A DNA stretch of 64,000 nt from Pseudomonadales bacterium (GTDB taxonomy: Bacteria; Pseudomonadota; Gammaproteobacteria; Pseudomonadales; JAHRWD01). Location: NCBI GenBank assembly GCA_016763075.1, contig JAESUM010000068.1, positions 13,051-77,050 of the forward strand, read 5' to 3'. The notes beneath the pieces are model-generated. The model was not told the origin of the DNA. It did not search any database and saw only the letters and a list, made by a program, of their open reading frames with translations. Position 1 is the stretch's first letter. Each line of letters begins with the position of its first letter. The position numbers and the translations under genes were made by a program. Of this stretch, positions 7,556-46,904 are shown piece by piece.

Positions 7556-8611
7556 ATGGCCACAGAATTTTCTAAAACCGTCGGTATTATCGCCAACCCC
7601 ATGTCAGGCCGAGACGGCAGACGCCTTGCGGCACGAGCCAGTACAGTCCCTCACGAAAGCAAACGGTTACAGATCACCCGAGCAGTGGTCGGGGCTATTG
7701 CGGCCGGCGCAGACCACATTGTAGTGGTTAACGAGCCACGCAGAATCTCTACCGGCGCGGTTGAAAACCTAACACTCGATGCACACTTCACTTACTTAGA
7801 TGTAGAAATCACCCACAACGCCGCCGAAACCGTATCGGCGGTCGAGCAAATGAAAGCCCTCGATTGCAAAGCGCTGATCGTACTTGGCGGCGACGGCACT
7901 AATCGAATTGTAGCTAAAGCGTGGCCAGATGCGCCGATCGTGCCGATATCTACCGGAACTAACAACGTATTCCCGCTAATGGTTGAAGCCACCTTAGGCG
8001 GCATGGCAGCAGGCTTAGTGGCCTCTGGCCGGCTTCCGCTTGAAGATGCCGGACGCCCTGCAAAAGTAGTGCGGGTCGATGTAGACGGTGAGCCAGAAGA
8101 TATCGCATTGATTGACGCTGTATTTTTGATCAACGACATCATTGGCAACGCCATGCCCTACGAATCAGATTCTATTCGGCACATCATTTTAGCCCGCGCT
8201 GAACCAGCATCCGTCGGTATTTCACCGGTCGGCGGGCTGCTTTGCCCTTCCAGTGCTGAAGACGAATTTGGCGTAGAAGTGCAATGTTGCGATCACGGCG
8301 AAGCTGGAACCCACCTGCTGGCACCCATCTCTCCGGGGCTATTTCGCAGCCTTCATATTAGAAGTGCAGAAAGAATTGAATTGGGCGAGCCCGTCGAGAT
8401 TACCGGCCCTGGCATTCTAGCCTTCGACGGCGACCGCGAGCGAGTGTTGGAGCCCGGCCAAAAAGCCTATATTCGAGTCGAGCGCAACGGGCCACATGTG
8501 ATCGACGTACATAAAAGCCTGCAACTGGCGGCACAGCGCGGGCTTCTTACCGGGCACATGCATTGGAAAGACAACTACGACGGCGCGCTGCAAGGCATTG
8601 GTTGCTGCTAA
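7556..8611 (+). CDS. ATP-NAD kinase / diacylglycerol-kinase-fold family protein (AcoX-like)
   Basis: ORF 7499-8611. Preferred start is ATG 7556 (MATEFSKTVGIIANPMSGRDG...). The GGDGTNR motif is typical of the NAD-kinase fold. Confidence 0.6.
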   Translation: MATEFSKTVGIIANPMSGRDGRRLAARASTVPHESKRLQITRAVVGAIAAGADHIVVVNEPRRISTGAVENLTLDAHFTYLDVEITHNAAETVSAVEQMKALDCKALIVLGGDGTNRIVAKAWPDAPIVPISTGTNNVFPLMVEATLGGMAAGLVASGRLPLEDAGRPAKVVRVDVDGEPEDIALIDAVFLINDIIGNAMPYESDSIRHIILARAEPASVGISPVGGLLCPSSAEDEFGVEVQCCDHGEAGTHLLAPISPGLFRSLHIRSAERIELGEPVEITGPGILAFDGDRERVLEPGQKAYIRVERNGPHVIDVHKSLQLAAQRGLLTGHMHWKDNYDGALQGIGCC

Positions 8612-39111: not shown

Positions 39112-40110
39112 ATGAAAGCAATTCAGATTGACGATCAAAAACTCAGCTGGACTGAAACCACAGCGCCCCAACCCGGCCCCGGCGAGGTGGCCATTCGTAT
39201 ACGCGCAACCGCAATCAACCGCGCGGATTTGGCGCAACGCGCTGGAGTTTACCCACCACCGCCCGGGGCCAGCGAAATACTCGGCCTTGAATGTGCGGGG
39301 GAGATTCAGCAATTGGGTGAGGGCGTGACCAACTGGAAAATAGGCGACCCAGTATGCGCACTGCTATCCGGCGGCGGCTACGCAGAAACCGTGGTTTGTC
39401 CCGCGGGACATCTGCTTCCAATACCTGCCGGTTTTAGCTTTGAGCAGGCAGCCGCATTGCCCGAAGTATTTGCCACCGCATGGCTAAATATCTTTCAGGA
39501 AGCCGCACTACAACCGGGTGAATCGGTACTGCTACACGCCGGAGCCAGTGGCGTGGGCACCGCAGCCATCCAACTATGCCACCATTTTGGCAACCCCTGC
39601 TTTGTGACCGTCGGCAGCCAGCAAAAGCTGGATTACTGTATAGAACTAGGGGCCGATGCGGGCTTTGATCGCAACTCTTCTGATCACACCACGGATCACA
39701 CCTCTGAAAGCAGCTTTGCGAGCGCAGTTAAAACCTGGCGCAACGGCAAGGGCGTAGATGTTATTCTCGATCCCGTTGGCGGTAACTATCTGGCCGGCAA
39801 CATGAGCTGCATGGCCGTGAATGCCCGCTTAGTACTCATTGGCCTAATGGGCGGTGCCAGCGCAGATATCAGCCTTGGCTTGCTGATGGTGAAACGATTT
39901 AGGCTAATCGGCTCTACCCTGCGCAGCCGCACGGATTTACAGAAAACCCAGCTTATTCAGTCATTACGCGAGCAGGTCTGGCCACTGTTTGATAGCGGTG
40001 AGTTAAAACCGATCATTCATAAAACCATGCCCATCACCGAAGCAGAGCAGGGTTTTGCACTGGTCGATTCCAATCAGACCATCGGCAAAGTAGTTTTAAC
40101 CATCCCTTGA
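39112..40110 (+). CDS. NAD(P)H:quinone oxidoreductase, zinc-free MDR (PIG3/QOR) family
   Basis: ORF 39004-40110. Preferred start ATG 39112 (MKAIQIDD...). GASGVGTAAIQL nucleotide-binding motif. Contains a short S/T/H/D-rich insertion. Confidence 0.75.
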   Translation: MKAIQIDDQKLSWTETTAPQPGPGEVAIRIRATAINRADLAQRAGVYPPPPGASEILGLECAGEIQQLGEGVTNWKIGDPVCALLSGGGYAETVVCPAGHLLPIPAGFSFEQAAALPEVFATAWLNIFQEAALQPGESVLLHAGASGVGTAAIQLCHHFGNPCFVTVGSQQKLDYCIELGADAGFDRNSSDHTTDHTSESSFASAVKTWRNGKGVDVILDPVGGNYLAGNMSCMAVNARLVLIGLMGGASADISLGLLMVKRFRLIGSTLRSRTDLQKTQLIQSLREQVWPLFDSGELKPIIHKTMPITEAEQGFALVDSNQTIGKVVLTIP

Positions 40111-40931
40111 TAGAGAATCAACCAATAGGGATATTTGATTCCGGGGTCGGCGGGCTTTCGATACTCGAGTCTATCCGCCAAACCCTGCCTAACGAACAAC
40201 TGATCTACGTGGCAGACGCCGCCAACGCACCCTACGGCAAACAAAGCGATGCACAGATCGTAGATCATTCATTACGAGTCTGCCGTTTTTTAATTGCCCA
40301 AAATGTAAAAGCAATTGTAGTGGCCTGCAACACCGCCACCACCATTGCCATTAGCGCCATCCGCGCCACTACCAACATTCCCGTAATAGGCGTAGAACCA
40401 GCCATAAAACCCGCCGTAGAACAAAGCAAAACTGGAGTGGTGGGTGTACTCGCCACCGCCGGCACCCTGCAAAGCACCCAGTTTGAAAAGCTAAGTAACC
40501 TTTATGGTAAAAACATAGAAGGTCGCGAAATAGAATTAATAACCCAGCCATGCAACGGACTAGTCGAAAGAGTAGAAGCGGGTGACATCGACGGTCCTAT
40601 CGTTACCCAATTGCTAGAGCAACATCTGCAACCACTGTTAAAACGAAACGTCGACACATTGGTACTGGGCTGTACCCACTATCCATTTTTAATTGAAACC
40701 ATTTCGCAAATTACCGGTTCCGCCGTAGCCATAATTCACCCCGGTGAAGCCGTTGCCCGGCAGCTTGAAAAACGTATTGGGCAAGAATCCCAACTGCGCG
40801 TTAAAACCGATCAACCTTCAATTCAGTTTTTCTCCAGTGAAGTTACTGAGCGTTATCGGTTTAGGTTTGAAGCTCTTCTTAAGCAATCAATCACACTTCA
40901 GTCCATCAACTTGCCGCTTCACCAATCTTAA
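40107..40931 (+). CDS. murI: glutamate racemase
   Basis: 274 aa. IGIFDSGVGGLS, VVACNTAT and LGCTHYP catalytic-Cys motifs. The TTG start overlaps the upstream stop (TTGA). Confidence 0.9.
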   Translation: MIENQPIGIFDSGVGGLSILESIRQTLPNEQLIYVADAANAPYGKQSDAQIVDHSLRVCRFLIAQNVKAIVVACNTATTIAISAIRATTNIPVIGVEPAIKPAVEQSKTGVVGVLATAGTLQSTQFEKLSNLYGKNIEGREIELITQPCNGLVERVEAGDIDGPIVTQLLEQHLQPLLKRNVDTLVLGCTHYPFLIETISQITGSAVAIIHPGEAVARQLEKRIGQESQLRVKTDQPSIQFFSSEVTERYRFRFEALLKQSITLQSINLPLHQS

Positions 40932-40953
40932 AAATGAATATATCTTATATGGT

Positions 40954-41235
40954 ATGTGGGGAATATATGAACATAAGCGTGTCACTAAGAGTCTGAAATC
41001 CGCCTCCATTGATGTACTAAAAAAGTACGAAAAATGGAAAGATATCGTGGCTATTTCTGGCCCGCAAGGCTTATTAAGAATCAAAGGATTCCGAGACGAA
41101 TTACTCTCAGGTGAGTGGAAAGATTATCGTTCCTCACGCCTAAACCTACAATATCGCGTCATCTACAAAGTAGAAACCGACAAAATTATGGTTCATGTGG
41201 AAAACGTTACTCCCGACGATTATCCGATAAAATAA
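40954..41235 (+). CDS. RelE/StbE-superfamily (HigB-like) mRNA-interferase toxin
   Basis: 93 aa from ATG 40954. ...LSGEWKDYRSSRLNLQYRVIYKVETDKIMVHVENVTPDDY resembles RelE-fold toxins that precede an HTH antitoxin (toxin-first HigBA order). AT-rich. Confidence 0.6.
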   Translation: MWGIYEHKRVTKSLKSASIDVLKKYEKWKDIVAISGPQGLLRIKGFRDELLSGEWKDYRSSRLNLQYRVIYKVETDKIMVHVENVTPDDYPIK

Positions 41236-41236
41236 T

Positions 41237-41505
41237 ATGAAAAATTACAAAAAGGCAAAAAGGCAAAAAGGACAGCCGTAGTTTCCGTTGGTGAATCTGT
41301 AAAACTTATCAGGGAACTTCAAGCACTCAGCCAAAATGAGTTAGCAAAATTATCAGGCATTCCCCAATCCACTATCTCTGCCATCGAAAACGACAGAATT
41401 CAGTTAGGCGTTGAACGGGCCAAAGTGCTGGCCAGGGCATTAAATTGCCACCCTGCGGTACTGGTATTTCCCACCTGGGATATTGAACAGGAATCAGCGG
41501 CATAG
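41237..41505 (+). pseudogene. XRE-family HTH antitoxin (HigA-like), start separated from the HTH body by a frameshift inside an 8-bp tandem repeat
   Basis: The ATG 41237 frame stops at TAG 41279-81 after 14 codons. The HTH frame (...VVSVGESVKLIRELQALSQNELAKLSGIPQSTISAIENDRIQLGVERAKVLARAL... to TAG 41503-05) has no ATG/GTG/TTG ahead of the HTH. Confidence 0.65.
41248..41271 (+). repeat. perfect tandem repeat CAAAAAGG x3
   Basis: Units at 41248-55, 41256-63 and 41264-71, read directly from the sequence. Confidence 0.95.
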
Positions 41506-41619
41506 ATAGATCCATATTTTGTGCCTTAAATCACAATACGTGGAAAATCGGTTCCGCTTGTTCACACGGCTAGAGCTAACAAATAACTGAGACTATAGAA
41601 GCAATAATTAATTGGACCA

Positions 41620-42264
41620 ATGAAAACTCAAGTTTTTTCGCCCTTATCTTATTTTTAGCCGCTCTATTTTTGGGTTGGGTAAGTGGCGCGTTTAAAGCAC
41701 TAAGGCGCAAGCCTGACTTAAAAGTAGAAGTCCTACCGGGGTCAACATTTTGTGCTTTGTTTGAAACCCTCGCAACAAGGAATGGGCGACACACGCATAG
41801 GACTGCCGTTGCACTTTATCTATCCATAACAAATGTTGGTGGCGCGCCGACTGATATCAAAACTATTCATGTAGGTTATAACTCGAAAAGTCACTTCATT
41901 CCATTTCGCTGGTTCTGACTAAAAGAGCTTACAGTTTCAAAATCCGACTTCATTATGAAGCTTGGAGAAGACCGAAAGGTTTACCCGTTCCTTGTTCAGA
42001 GAAATCAGCATACTGACAATCAAATTGATACTTATTTACTTGAAGGGAAAAAATGTAAGGGTAGTTTGTTTCGAACAAGAAGAATCTTGGGGCAACTATT
42101 TACCCAAGACCCGCGATAATAAAATGAAGATTAAAATCAAAGTGTTGGATATGCACGGCAACCGTTATTTTTATACGTCGGTAATTAATAAGGTAACCAT
42201 TGATGCCGCTAAAGAAGTTAGTGCGAAGTTTGGTGAGACAAGAGAGTCACTGAGTAAAGCCTAA
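41620..42264 (+). pseudogene. membrane-anchored protein of unknown function, disrupted three times
   Basis: ATG 41620 (MKTQVF) shifts -1 in the T6 run 41633-38 into FALILFLAALFLGWVSGAF... (track ORF 41670-41918). In-frame TGA at 41916-18. A +1 shift in the A6 run 42048-53 leads into ...NVRVVCFEQEESWGNYLP...SLSKA (track ORF 41962-42264). Confidence 0.5.
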
Positions 42265-42389
42265 AGCCCTAACAAATCAATCACCAAATTCAGCAACCCT
42301 TTCCTCAAGCACAGCCTTTACCGCTTACTTCTGATTTCCTTTTCCCATTACGTTGCCTTGTATTTCCGACTCCATCAATAATCCTGCTT

Positions 42390-43114
42390 CTACCGATAAA
42401 TAATTTGCGGCACTAAATAACCGTTTATTACCCCGAATTGCATCGGGGTTTTTGTGGCTATTTCTTTAGCGGTTTCAAATGTGGCGGCAAGTGGGTTTTC
42501 ACTTATTCGTGTTATAAATCCATATTCCAATGCTTGTTGCGCGGTAAATATTCTACCTGTGTAGGCCAGTTCACTCACGATATCTTCACGGGCTAAATGG
42601 CGCATTAATTGTGTGCCTGCCATATCGGGCACGATACCCCATTTTATTTCCATAATTGAAAAGCGGGGCTCTGGTGCGGCGTAACGTATATCAGCCCGTA
42701 GGGCGATTTGAAAACCACTACCATAAGCAACGCCATGCACTGCTGCGATAACCGGCATGGGTAAATTGCGCCACATCCACACGGCATACTGAACGTAGTT
42801 GGCTATTCCGTGGGTTCTTGTTACTAGCGGCTCGCTGCGTTGTGGAGGTTTGTTGGCAGCGCTTTCTTGTAGGTTTTCTTCGGAATTATTATCAGCAGCC
42901 ATGTTAGAAAAACTGCTCATATCTAACCCTGCGCAAAATGCCGGCCAGTGCCAGATAACACCGCTACGCGCACTTCAGGCACATTACGCAGTCGCTCGCC
43001 AACTTCGGTTATTGCAGCGAACATTTCACCATCGAGCGCGTTCATTTTTTTGCTACGTACAAAGCGTACATCTACAATACCGTCGGTAATGCTTAGGATG
43101 ATTCGACCCTCTAT
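42390..43114 (-). pseudogene. enoyl-CoA hydratase/isomerase (crotonase) family gene with a frameshift and no canonical start
   Basis: The upstream segment IEGRIILSITDGIVDVRFVRSKKMNALDGEMF...VAVLSGTGRHF ends at TAG. One extra T (plus-strand A run 42935-38) would give HFCAGLDMSSF..., continuing into track ORF 42390-42920 (...VIAAVHGVAYGSGFQIAL). The codon at the homology start is ATA (43114-12), behind AAGGGAGAA. Confidence 0.75.
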
Positions 43115-45107: not shown

Positions 45108-45761
45108 GTGAAGATAGATTGGAACAATGTGGATACGGTTTTGTTAGACATGGACGGCACCCTGCTGGACCTGCATTTCGATAACCATTTTTGGCTTGAG
45201 CATTTGCCGCAACGTTATGCCGACCACAACGGCATCACCCGCGACCAAGCCTTTGAAAAAATGATTGTGCTGTTTCAGAAAACCAAAGGTAGCCTCAATT
45301 GGTACTGCTTAGATTACTGGTCCGATGCGCTGAGTATTGATATTGTCGCGCTTAAATTAGAGGTAAAACACTTGGTGCAGATTCGCCCATTTGTTACGGA
45401 GTTTCTAGTTTTTTTACAACAAAAAAACTGTAACCGTGTTTTGGCAACCAATGCTCACCGTTCTGGGCTTGAGCTCAAATTAGCGATCACAAACATTGAT
45501 AATGGGCTAGATGAAATTTACAGCTCCCACGATTTTGGTCACCCCAAAGAATCTCAATTATTTTGGCAAGCGCTGAACGATGTTCAACCCTTTGACCCTG
45601 CCCGCACCATGCTAATTGATGATAATCAGTCGGTGTTACAAAGCGCCCGAACTTATGGCATTAAACACTTGCTTAGCATTGCTCAGCCGGATAGCCAAAA
45701 ACCGCCACAACCAGACGGTGAGTTCGTGGCTGTGGAATGCTTTAATAACTTAATAACTTAA
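45108..45761 (+). CDS. yrfG: HAD-family GMP/IMP nucleotidase YrfG-like
   Basis: 217 aa. Colinear by memory with E. coli YrfG (VDTVLLDMDGTLLDL.FDN.FW, LNWYCLDYWS). The last 6 codons and the stop lie inside the 8-bp tandem array. Confidence 0.8.
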   Translation: MKIDWNNVDTVLLDMDGTLLDLHFDNHFWLEHLPQRYADHNGITRDQAFEKMIVLFQKTKGSLNWYCLDYWSDALSIDIVALKLEVKHLVQIRPFVTEFLVFLQQKNCNRVLATNAHRSGLELKLAITNIDNGLDEIYSSHDFGHPKESQLFWQALNDVQPFDPARTMLIDDNQSVLQSARTYGIKHLLSIAQPDSQKPPQPDGEFVAVECFNNLIT

Positions 45762-45812
45762 TAACTTAATAACTTAATAACTTAATAACTTAATAACTTA
45801 ATAACTTAATAA
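45743..45812. repeat. tandem repeat TAATAACT x8 plus a partial unit
   Basis: Eight perfect 8-bp units at 45743-45806, then TAATAA. Overlaps the 3' end of yrfG. Confidence 0.95.
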
Positions 45813-45866: not shown

Positions 45867-46904
45867 TTAAAGCATTTCTTCTGCTAAAAACCGCATGGTC
45901 TCAATCGACTGTGTACCAATCATCATGGTGTCGACGTGGCGTTTTTTGCCGGCTTCTTTCCAGGGTTGTAGCTGCTCTCTAATACGTTCGCGTGGGCCAA
46001 TCAATGCAATGTCGTCAACCAGTTGGTTTGGCACTGCTGCGGCGGCCTCTTCTTTTTTTCCATCCAGATATAAATCCTGAATTTTCACAGCAGCATCTTC
46101 ATAACCCAAGCGTTTGGCGTAATCATTGTAAAAGTTTTTTTCACGTGCACCCATGCCGCCAATGTACAGGGCCATATGTTGTTTTATGGGTTCACGACAG
46201 GCTTCAAGGTCATCGCCTTCTATCACGGTTACTGAGGGTATGATGTCATAATTTTGTAATGTTTTATCCGTGGTTTTGTCAAAACCCTTTTGAATATTCG
46301 GTGCAAAAATATCGTATCTTTCTGGGTTCATCCACAATGGGAAAACGCCGTTGGCAACTTCGGCACTGGCTTCAATGCCTGCATTGGTAATAGAAGCCGT
46401 GTAGATTTTAATATTTGGATTGCCATGCAAAATACTTTTTAACGGTTTACCCAACCCAACAGATTTTTCGCCTCTATTAGGCAGCTGGTAATGATAGCCA
46501 TCAAATGTGACCGGGCCTTCGCGTTCTAAAATTTTACGAATAATGGCAATATATTCTTTGGTACGAGTCACTGGCCGTTTGTAACCAACTCCGTGCCAGC
46601 CTTCTACAACTTGAGGGCCCGATGCACCAAGGCCCATAATAAAACGGCCACCAGAAAGTGCGTCTAATGTCATGGCTGTCATCGCTGCGTTGGCAGGTGT
46701 ACGTGCAGGAATTTGCATGATTGAAGTACCCACTTTTATTTTGGTAGTCTGCGCCAAAATCCAAGCTGCTGGGGAAACCGCATCGGAGCCGTAAGCTTCG
46801 GCAGTCCAGACTGAATCAAAACCAAGGTTTTCTGCTTCTTTGATTCGTGTCATATCCATACCTATTTCACGGCCGGAATAACCTATCGATAAACCTAATT
46901 TCAT
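45867..46904 (-). CDS. luciferase-like (LLM class) flavin-dependent oxidoreductase
   Basis: Preferred start ATG 46904 (MKLGLSIGYSG...), 6 nt after GAGGG. TIM-barrel LLM signatures (FDSVWTAEAYGSD, GRFIMGLGASGP). Confidence 0.75.
   Translation of the reverse strand: MKLGLSIGYSGREIGMDMTRIKEAENLGFDSVWTAEAYGSDAVSPAAWILAQTTKIKVGTSIMQIPARTPANAAMTAMTLDALSGGRFIMGLGASGPQVVEGWHGVGYKRPVTRTKEYIAIIRKILEREGPVTFDGYHYQLPNRGEKSVGLGKPLKSILHGNPNIKIYTASITNAGIEASAEVANGVFPLWMNPERYDIFAPNIQKGFDKTTDKTLQNYDIIPSVTVIEGDDLEACREPIKQHMALYIGGMGAREKNFYNDYAKRLGYEDAAVKIQDLYLDGKKEEAAAAVPNQLVDDIALIGPRERIREQLQPWKEAGKKRHVDTMMIGTQSIETMRFLAEEML

What the first reader, a model, noticed from the sequence alone, without database searches (positions are those of the whole stretch)
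41237..41505. An 8-bp x3 tandem repeat (CAAAAAGG) knocks the HTH antitoxin out of frame beside an apparently intact RelE/HigB-like toxin
One nucleotide after the toxin stop (41233-35), ATG 41237 opens a frame that runs through three perfect CAAAAAGG units (41248-41271) and hits TAG at 41279. The XRE-type HTH body lies in the -1 frame, which has no ATG/GTG/TTG ahead of the HTH.

Deleting one 8-bp unit joins them perfectly: MKNYKKAKRTAVVSVGESVKLIRELQALSQNELAKLSGIPQSTISAIENDR.... Because the unit length is not a multiple of 3, the copy number sets the reading frame. Two copies put the gene in frame. Three or four copies put it out of frame.

This could be a slipped-strand ON/OFF switch on an antitoxin. 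It could also be a one-off duplication that is tolerated because the toxin is inactive or because the antitoxin is still made by frameshifting or reinitiation.
Basis: seen in the sequence. Interest (0 to 1): 0.6.

Follow-up and report, generated by a model that had tools for sequence, protein, structure and literature searches.

The report
Decaying toxin-antitoxin pair, frameshifted antitoxin
An 8-base duplication has broken the antitoxin gene of a small toxin-antitoxin pair whose toxin and promoter also carry damaging changes, so this looks like ordinary gene decay rather than a genetic ON/OFF switch.

Summary
CAAAAAGG occurs three times in perfect tandem at 41248-41271. ATG 41237 runs into TAG 41279-81, and the HTH body sits in the -1 frame with no start codon before GTG 41425. 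Removing one unit gives an 86-aa protein that aligns end to end with a very large family of 86-aa XRE antitoxins. These sit 1 nt after a 93-aa RelE/YafQ-like toxin.

The switch reading is not supported:
- Five assemblies from at least three North Pond crustal-fluid samples all carry three units, although they differ by SNPs elsewhere.
- No in-frame allele exists among 5.8 billion proteins.
- None of 85 relatives has the extra unit.

The "intact" toxin is the most deviant of 116 family members. It has seven changes at columns that are at least 90% conserved, including HDYRRK to DDYPIK at the C-terminus. The only other H88D toxin found (L023) also has a frameshifted antitoxin. The family promoter TTGACA-16-TATACT is eroded to TTCACC-17-TATCTT. 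A neighbouring enoyl-CoA hydratase gene is also a pseudogene.

Best reading: a fixed one-off slippage duplication in a TA module that is already disarmed. Low-level -1 frameshifting at in-frame A_AAG / A_AAA sites cannot be excluded.

The parts
40107..40931 (+). murI (glutamate racemase). This is the upstream housekeeping gene, and its stop TAA 40929-31 lies inside the remnant of the TA promoter.
   Evidence: ORF. Pfam Asp_Glu_race on the identical gene in L001-L003.
40918..40953 (+). Eroded TA promoter/operator. It reads TTCACC (40918-23), a 17-nt spacer, TATCTT (40941-46), then ATATGGT before the toxin ATG. The family consensus is TTGACA-16-TATACT with an ACCATA...TATGGT palindrome.
   Evidence: Alignment with relatives. 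Consensus of 83 loci. 79 of 83 relatives keep TTGAC and the window does not. No promoter-like site was scored here.
40954..41235 (+). 93-aa RelE/StbE-YafQ-like toxin ORF. It is open but carries P18S, G57D, L79M, Q81H, H88D (codon 41215-17), R91P (41224-26) and R92I (41227-29).
   Evidence: TIGR02385 31.3 bits against a cut-off of 27.9. hhalign to YafQ gives probability 92%. Per-column frequencies. Outlier test.
41237..41281 (+). Truncated antitoxin start: ATG followed by 13 codons (MKNYKKAKRQKGQP), then TAG 41279-81.
   Evidence: ATG 1 nt after the toxin stop is the family arrangement.
41248..41271 (+). CAAAAAGG x3 perfect tandem. The third unit is an 8-bp duplication that shifts the frame by +2 (equivalent to -1).
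   Evidence: Relatives have an imperfect two-unit version, for example TAAAAAGGCTAAAAGA.
41248..41272 (+). Three potential -1 slippery sites in the ATG frame: C_AAA_AAG (41248-54), A_AAA_AGG (41257-63) and A_AAA_GGA (41266-72). A -1 shift at any of them would give an 89-aa HTH protein.
   Evidence: Read from the sequence. A_AAG is the minimal -1 shift site in E. coli (PMC5009743). AGG is the rarest Arg codon here at 1.7 per 1000. There is no stimulatory structure: fold z-score is -0.32.
41272..41505 (+). Body of the XRE/HTH_3 antitoxin in the -1 frame (TAVVSVGESV...EQESAA, then TAG 41503-05). It is well preserved, with only I21L and G77T at conserved columns.
   Evidence: Pfam HTH_3 2.6e-15. 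End-to-end alignment with 86-aa homologues. Outlier test.
41506..42389 (.). About 0.9 kb with no called gene and no Pfam match. It is context for local decay.
42390..43100 (-). Enoyl-CoA hydratase pseudogene. It has a 1-nt deletion between VLSGTG and PAFCAGLD, and probable loss of the start codon (ATG to ATA).
   Evidence: The same split gene is called in L001.

Best explanation
This is a chromosomal type II toxin-antitoxin module in the course of decay. It consists of a 93-aa RelE/YafQ-like toxin followed 1 nt later by an 86-aa XRE-HTH antitoxin.

In the ancestor, codons 5-9 of the antitoxin (K-K-A-K-R) happened to form two 8-bp direct repeats. One replication-slippage event added a third unit and frameshifted the antitoxin after codon 9. 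That allele is now fixed in the population.

It is tolerated because the module is already disarmed. The toxin has lost the near-invariant C-terminal His and both Arg residues (HDYRRK to DDYPIK) and carries four more changes at conserved positions. The module's own promoter/operator has also eroded.

What is shown: the lesion, its fixation at assembly level, the ancestral two-unit state, the outlier status of the toxin, and the promoter erosion. What is inferred: that H88D, R91P and R92I abolish toxicity (by analogy with YafQ H87), and the order of events.
For: 1. The repaired two-unit protein is 86 aa and aligns over 100% of its length with thousands of 86-aa homologues. In 85 related loci the antitoxin starts 0-4 nt (nearly always 1 nt) after the toxin stop, and none has an extra unit.
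2. All five contigs that carry the exact toxin (L001-L005; BioSamples SAMN03458685, SAMN03458686 and SAMN03458688, JGI Ga0071101, SRR2226463) have three units. They differ from the window by 0-2 SNPs elsewhere.
3. No protein more than 87% identical to the repaired antitoxin exists in the 5.8-billion-protein collection, and no gene is called there in L001-L005.
4. The toxin has seven deviations at columns that are at least 90% conserved, against a mean of 1.3 and a maximum of 6 in 115 relatives. H88 is His in 113 of 115 relatives, R91 in 109 and R92 in 110.
5. The only other H88D toxin (L023/P0190) also has a frameshifted antitoxin. That makes 2 of 2 against 0 of 84, hypergeometric p about 3e-4 by my arithmetic.
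6. The YafQ H87A mutant shows no mRNA cleavage at all (PMC4652777). H88 here and H87 in YafQ both lie 5 residues from the C-terminus.
7. The promoter's -35 and -10 elements and the left operator half-site are degraded.
8. A neighbouring ECH gene is a pseudogene, and 0.9 kb next to it is gene-less.
Against: The toxin ORF is still open with its ATG. The antitoxin HTH body is barely degraded, with two deviations that fall within the family range. So the frameshift may be recent, or the HTH frame may still be under selection.

Loss of toxicity is inferred, not measured. The equivalence of H88 with YafQ H87 is positional only: hhalign aligned residues 40-76 only, and the structure model was too poor to use.

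Consensus assemblies cannot reveal minority alleles within a sample. All samples come from one site and one sampling campaign.
Confidence: 0.75

Rival explanations
1. The indel is compensated by leaky translation. The three-unit allele still yields some full-length (89-aa) antitoxin, because ribosomes shift -1 at C_AAA_AAG, A_AAA_AGG or A_AAA_GGA before they reach TAG 41279. The pair would then remain functional with a throttled antitoxin supply.
For: The frame change needed is exactly -1, and the HTH frame is open across the whole tract. A_AAG in the zero frame is the minimal -1 shift site in E. coli and has been seen to compensate frameshift mutations (PMC5009743). AGG is the rarest Arg codon in this genome, at 1.7 per 1000, which favours P-site slippage on A_AAA. 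The HTH body is well preserved.
Against: There is no downstream stimulatory structure: the fold z-score is -0.32. There is no Rfam match. The arrangement is not conserved, being seen in 0 of 85 relatives. Unstimulated A_AAG shifting is typically only a few percent (my knowledge). The toxin and promoter lesions make a need for antitoxin doubtful.
Confidence: 0.12
2. The tract is a slipped-strand contingency locus. It expands and contracts reversibly (2 units ON, 3 or 4 units OFF) and so switches antitoxin production within the population.
For: The unit length of 8 is not a multiple of 3, and the tract lies at the 5' end of the ORF. The same genome holds another perfect 8-bp array, TTAATAAC x8.9 at 45742-45812, whose length is unresolved in another assembly.
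Against: The tract has only three units, whereas known phase-variable tracts are much longer (my knowledge). Copy number is identical in five assemblies from at least three samples. No ON allele is found in any database. No relative shows copy-number change. An OFF antitoxin beside an active toxin would be lethal rather than a usable phase. The other 8-bp array is intergenic and unrelated in sequence.
Confidence: 0.05
3. The extra unit is an assembly or sequencing artefact, and the real gene is intact.
For: The source is a metagenome-assembled genome, and short repeats can be mis-assembled.
Against: Five contigs from different samples and pipelines (ENA re-assemblies, JGI, Logan) agree base for base across the tract. 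A 24-bp tract is far shorter than the reads.
Confidence: 0.02

Closest known systems
E. coli DinJ-YafQ and the RelE/StbE family of ribosome-dependent mRNA interferases
   Same: The toxin family matches TIGR02385 RelE_StbE above its cut-off. It aligns to YafQ over the WKGYR...IYK core with hhalign probability 92%. It is about 92 aa long, with a conserved His 5 residues from the C-terminus, like the catalytic H87 of YafQ.
   Different: Gene order is toxin first, and the antitoxin is an XRE-HTH protein rather than the RHH protein DinJ. Sequence similarity to YafQ is marginal: the Pfam YafQ and HigB models score below their cut-offs. The window's copy lacks the C-terminal His.
HigB-HigA type modules (toxin upstream, XRE/HTH antitoxin downstream)
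   Same: They share the reverse gene order and an HTH_3 antitoxin. The stop and start are tightly coupled (TAAnATG), and the promoter overlaps a palindrome.
   Different: The HigA equivalog TIGR02607 scores only 18.5 bits against a cut-off of 47.7, and HigB-like Pfam scores 21.3 against 27. This is therefore a separate, uncharacterised subfamily with no solved structure.
Simple-sequence-repeat contingency loci (phase-variable genes of Haemophilus, Neisseria, Campylobacter)
   Same: A tandem repeat whose unit is not a multiple of 3 lies inside the 5' end of an ORF, so copy number sets the reading frame.
   Different: There are only three units, no copy-number variation among assemblies, no ON allele on record and no conservation of the tract. 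No TA antitoxin precedent turned up in the literature search.
Degenerate or orphan chromosomal TA modules (pseudogenised toxin or antitoxin)
   Same: Damage has accumulated in the toxin's active-site residues, the antitoxin's frame and the promoter. A parallel case is L023, with H88D plus an antitoxin frameshift.
   Different: Nothing essential differs. This is the category the locus belongs to.

Membership tests
RelE/StbE-YafQ superfamily toxin | Sequence profile match above the curated threshold | tested here: met
   TIGR02385 scores 31.3 bits against a cut-off of 27.9, E 2.2e-7. hhalign to YafQ gives probability 92% over residues 40-76. Pfam HigB-like and YafQ models score below their cut-offs.
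RelE/StbE-YafQ superfamily toxin | Microbial RNase fold (beta-sheet plus helices) | tested here: inconclusive
   The AlphaFold2 model has mean pLDDT 63. Foldseek against PDB gave no match with E<=0.001.
RelE/StbE-YafQ superfamily toxin | Conserved catalytic residues, including the C-terminal general acid (His in YafQ/YoeB-type toxins) | tested here: not met
   The family has H88 in 113 of 115 members, and the window has D88 together with R91P and R92I. YafQ H87A is inactive. The equivalence of the two His residues is inferred from position.
RelE/StbE-YafQ superfamily toxin | Ribosome-dependent mRNA cleavage and growth arrest | not testable with these tools
   This needs expression and cleavage assays.
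Type II TA module (toxin plus cognate protein antitoxin in one operon) | An intact adjacent antitoxin ORF with its own start | tested here: not met
   In the window the ATG frame stops after 14 codons, and the HTH frame has no start before 41425. The feature is met in 83 of 85 relatives. L023 is frameshifted, and L087 is cut by the contig end.
XRE / HTH_3 antitoxin | Cro/C1-type helix-turn-helix domain | tested here: met
   PF01381 scores 56.6 bits against a cut-off of 23, on both the repaired and the raw -1-frame translations.
SSR phase-variable (contingency) locus | The repeat unit is not a multiple of 3 and lies inside an ORF or promoter | tested here: met
   8-bp unit at codons 5-12.
SSR phase-variable (contingency) locus | Copy number differs among strains, samples or reads | tested here: not met
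   All five assemblies from at least three BioSamples have three units. Read-level data were not available.
SSR phase-variable (contingency) locus | Both ON and OFF alleles are observed | tested here: not met
   The best database match to the ON protein is 87% identical, from another lineage.
Programmed -1 ribosomal frameshift | A slippery site in the correct frame ahead of the zero-frame stop | tested here: met
   C_AAA_AAG, A_AAA_AGG and A_AAA_GGA. A_AAG shiftiness is described in PMC5009743.
Programmed -1 ribosomal frameshift | A stimulatory element, and conservation of the arrangement among relatives | tested here: not met
   Fold z-score is -0.32. There is no Rfam hit. The arrangement occurs in 0 of 85 relatives.

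The most novel reading that the evidence does not exclude
The 8-bp duplication acts as a 'savior indel'. It places three A_AAA / A_AAG slippery sites in frame, so a small, tunable fraction of ribosomes shifts -1 and makes an 89-aa antitoxin. This would keep a weakened toxin just neutralised. Alternatively, rare slippage back to two units restores full expression.
Probability: 0.08. Interest if true: 0.5.

Novelty: new member of a known kind. Interest (0 to 1): 0.15.

Why it matters
As it stands this matters little. It is one more chromosomal TA module being lost, in a free-living deep-subseafloor gammaproteobacterium.

Two modest points are useful:
- The very abundant but uncharacterised 93-aa/86-aa family gets a natural-experiment pointer to its key toxin residue. 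H88D co-occurs with antitoxin loss in two independent lineages.
- The case shows how a lysine-rich N-terminus (KKAKR) can create a short direct repeat that seeds a frameshifting duplication.

If the antitoxin were shown to be made by -1 frameshifting, the locus would be a rare example of translational compensation tuning a TA ratio.

Tried and rejected
- Variable-gap DNA scans (flank-N{8,38}-flank) of metagenome contigs and genome contigs, and a plain flank scan of metagenome contigs, all gave 0 hits. These collections do not contain this organism, so the scans say nothing about allele variation.
- Pairwise dN/dS between the window and relatives failed because dS is saturated. The ratio of toxin dN to antitoxin dN (1.49) does not differ from the background (1.40). 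The conserved-column outlier test was used instead.
- The AlphaFold2 model of the toxin (pLDDT 63) and the Foldseek PDB search gave meaningless matches. They could not place H88 in an active site.
- An RNA fold of 41225-41345 showed no significant structure, and there was no Rfam family in 40700-42400.
- tblastn for a second copy of the toxin or antitoxin in the window, which could neutralise in trans, found none.
- A literature search for phase-variable antitoxins found no direct precedent.
- I considered stop-codon readthrough of the toxin TAA, because the HTH is in the toxin's frame. I rejected it as a 1-in-3 coincidence with a strong TAA-T terminator context (inference).
- I considered an internal start at GTG 41425, which would give a 26-aa C-terminal peptide. 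It is untestable here because the codon is conserved for coding reasons.

Full report
**Observation.** The window sequence and Tandem Repeats Finder confirm three perfect CAAAAAGG units at 41248-41271. The upstream ORF 40954-41235 ends in TAA at 41233-35. One nucleotide later, ATG 41237 opens a 14-codon frame (MKNYKKAKRQKGQP) that stops at TAG 41279-81. The helix-turn-helix body lies in the -1 frame, which is open from the toxin stop to TAG 41503-05. Its first ATG/GTG/TTG is GTG 41425, past the HTH. Both the repaired and the raw -1-frame translations match Pfam HTH_3 at 56.6 bits against a cut-off of 23.

**What the two genes are.** The 93-aa protein passes the NCBIfam RelE/StbE subfamily model (31.3 bits, cut-off 27.9). 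It scores below cut-off on the Pfam HigB-like and YafQ models. A profile of the family finds E. coli YafQ as the nearest solved structure (E 0.003). hhalign aligns residues 40-76 to YafQ 41-77 at 92% probability, across the shared WKGYR...IYK core.

Database searches show that both proteins belong to a very large, uncharacterised family:
- The antitoxin search returned 8000 hits, capped at 8000, almost all exactly 86 aa.
- The toxin search returned 2214 hits, almost all exactly 93 aa.
- At least 523 loci occur in GTDB species representatives across Gammaproteobacteria, Desulfobacterota, Nitrospirota and Acidobacteriota.

In 85 related loci the antitoxin ATG follows the toxin stop by 0-4 nt, nearly always 1 nt, as it does in the window. 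The repaired two-unit protein aligns to the 86-aa family over 100% of its length. Two units is therefore the ancestral state and the third unit is the lesion.

**Origin of the repeat.** Relatives encode K-K-A-K-R at codons 5-9 with sequences such as TAAAAAGGCTAAAAGA or TAAAAAGGCCAAAAGA. That is an imperfect 8-bp direct repeat imposed by the lysine- and arginine-rich N-terminus. In the window's lineage the two units had become identical. That sets up slipped-strand mispairing, which added one more unit (inference).

**Is it a switch?** The exact toxin sequence occurs on five contigs:
- three ENA re-assemblies of BioSamples SAMN03458685, SAMN03458686 and SAMN03458688;
- JGI Ga0071101;
- a Logan assembly of SRR2226463.

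These are the North Pond crustal-fluid metagenomes of Meyer et al. 2016 (PMC4776111). All five carry three units, base for base. Yet three of them differ from the window by 1-2 SNPs elsewhere, so there is some population diversity but none at the tract.

No gene is called downstream of the toxin in any of the five contigs. The best match to the repaired antitoxin in the 5.8-billion-protein collection is only 87% identical. So neither a two-unit nor a five-unit in-frame allele of this gene has ever been assembled. None of 85 relatives has a changed unit number. Three units is also far below the tract lengths of known contingency loci (my knowledge).

A second perfect 8-bp array in the window, TTAATAAC x8.9 at 45742-45812, behaves differently. 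In one sample's scaffold it is broken by a 100-N gap between two 6.9-unit blocks. The assemblies therefore do flag unstable arrays where they exist. Consensus assemblies cannot exclude minority alleles, so read-level counting remains the decisive test.

**Is the toxin really intact?** The ORF is open, but column-by-column comparison with 115 ungapped 93-aa relatives shows rare residues at strongly conserved positions:

| Substitution | Family residue frequency |
|---|---|
| P18S | 95% P |
| G57D | 97% G (within the WKGYR motif shared with YafQ) |
| L79M | 97% L |
| Q81H | 90% Q |
| H88D | 98% H |
| R91P | 95% R |
| R92I | 96% R |

The window has seven deviations at columns that are at least 90% conserved. 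The family mean is 1.3 and the maximum is 6, so this is the most deviant toxin in the set. The antitoxin body has two deviations (mean 0.8, maximum 4), which is unremarkable.

The C-terminus has changed from HDYRRK to DDYPIK through three single-nucleotide changes within five codons. In YafQ the His 5 residues from the C-terminus (H87) is the proposed general acid, and H87A abolishes cleavage (PMC4652777). H88 here occupies the same distance from the C-terminus. This equivalence is inferred from position only: hhalign did not extend that far, and the AlphaFold2 model (pLDDT 63) gave no usable fold matches.

**An independent natural replicate.** Among the 86 loci in which both genes could be examined, only one other toxin has H88D. 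It is L023, a Chromatiaceae MAG (P0190). Its antitoxin is also frameshifted, by a 1-nt deletion at N67/C68, and its toxin carries further odd substitutions (G36W, V69A, VEN to AGS). Two of two H88D toxins have broken antitoxins, against none of 84 H88 toxins. That gives a hypergeometric p of about 3e-4 (my arithmetic; some relatives are not independent). This fits the expected logic: an antitoxin can be lost only when the toxin is harmless, or its loss selects immediately for toxin inactivation.

**Promoter.** Relatives share a strongly conserved upstream element. It consists of TTGACA, a 16-nt spacer containing ACCATAT, then TATACT and ATTTATGGT directly before the ATG. The -10 hexamer is only about 10 nt from the start codon, and an ACCATA...TATGGT palindrome is the likely operator. 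Of 83 relatives, 79 keep TTGAC. The window instead has TTCACC, a 17-nt spacer and TATCTT, and the left palindrome arm is replaced. The murI stop codon (40929-31) lies inside this region, and the promoter scan scores nothing there. Any remaining transcription probably reads through from murI (inference).

**Neighbourhood.** The region 41506-42389 has no called gene and no Pfam match. The enoyl-CoA hydratase gene at 42390-43100 (minus strand) is a pseudogene. It has a 1-nt deletion between VLSGTG and PAFCAGLD, and a probable ATG-to-ATA start loss behind a good Shine-Dalgarno sequence. Local gene decay is therefore not confined to the TA pair.

**Residual alternative.** The shift needed to reach the HTH frame is -1. 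The tract supplies C_AAA_AAG, A_AAA_AGG and A_AAA_GGA in the zero frame. A_AAG is the minimal -1 shift site in E. coli and has been seen to compensate frameshift mutations (PMC5009743). AGG is the rarest Arg codon in this window's long ORFs, at 1.7 per 1000. A shift at any of the three sites would give an 89-aa antitoxin with three extra residues in the variable N-terminus.

Against this, there is no stimulatory structure (z -0.32), no Rfam hit and no conservation among relatives. I give it about 12%. The well-preserved HTH body is equally explained by a recent frameshift.

**Verdict.** The more exciting interpretation, a slipped-strand switch on an antitoxin, is not supported. The locus is a decaying member of a known kind of system: a RelE/YafQ-like toxin with an XRE antitoxin in HigBA-like gene order. 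The lesion is a fixed 8-bp slippage duplication, tolerated because the toxin and promoter are already damaged. Interest is low. The modest by-products are a pointer to H88 as the key toxin residue of an abundant uncharacterised family, and the family's conserved near-leaderless promoter/operator.

Noticed in passing
window 45742-45812 (and L093 2333-2542): There is a perfect TTAATAAC x8.9 tandem array. It straddles the stop of a HAD-hydrolase ORF (45108-45761, +) and the intergenic gap before a convergent luciferase-like monooxygenase (45867-46904, -). In the scaffold from sample SAMN03458686 the array is 6.9 units, 100 N, then 6.9 units. It is therefore longer or unresolved there, and may be genuinely length-variable.
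   Followed up: partly
window 42390-43100 (- strand): The enoyl-CoA hydratase gene is a pseudogene. It has a 1-nt deletion (GGCCCGG to GGCCGG) between VLSGTG and PAFCAGLD, and a probable ATG-to-ATA start loss 6 nt after the Shine-Dalgarno sequence AAGGGAG. The same split is called in L001.
   Followed up: partly
window 41506-42389: About 0.9 kb has no called gene in any assembly, and the two longest ORFs (82 and 100 aa) have no Pfam hit. This may be degraded DNA that arrived with the TA module.
   Followed up: partly
L006-L092, 45 nt upstream of each toxin ATG; window 40909-40953: The family shares a promoter/operator: TTGACA, 16 nt, TATACT, with the toxin ATG only about 10 nt after the -10 hexamer (near-leaderless mRNA). 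An ACCATA...TATGGT palindrome spans the -10. The element is 80-99% conserved across phyla.
   Followed up: partly
L023 1501-2060 (Chromatiaceae MAG JALWWO010000022.1): This is a second, independently decayed pair. The toxin has H88D, G36W, V69A and VEN to AGS. The antitoxin has a 1-nt deletion at N67/C68 that puts the conserved CHPAVLLFPDWDIEQESAA tail out of frame.
   Followed up: yes
L009 1501-1761 (GCA_027000025.1 JALTOU010000022.1): An 86-aa antitoxin homologue has no toxin upstream. It overlaps the 3' end of a transketolase-C-domain gene by 4 nt. It may be an orphan antitoxin, or the toxin may have been replaced.
   Followed up: no
window 41233-41505: With three units, the HTH frame coincides with the toxin's reading frame. 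A single TAA (41233-35) is all that separates the toxin from an in-frame HTH domain. This is probably a 1-in-3 coincidence.
   Followed up: no
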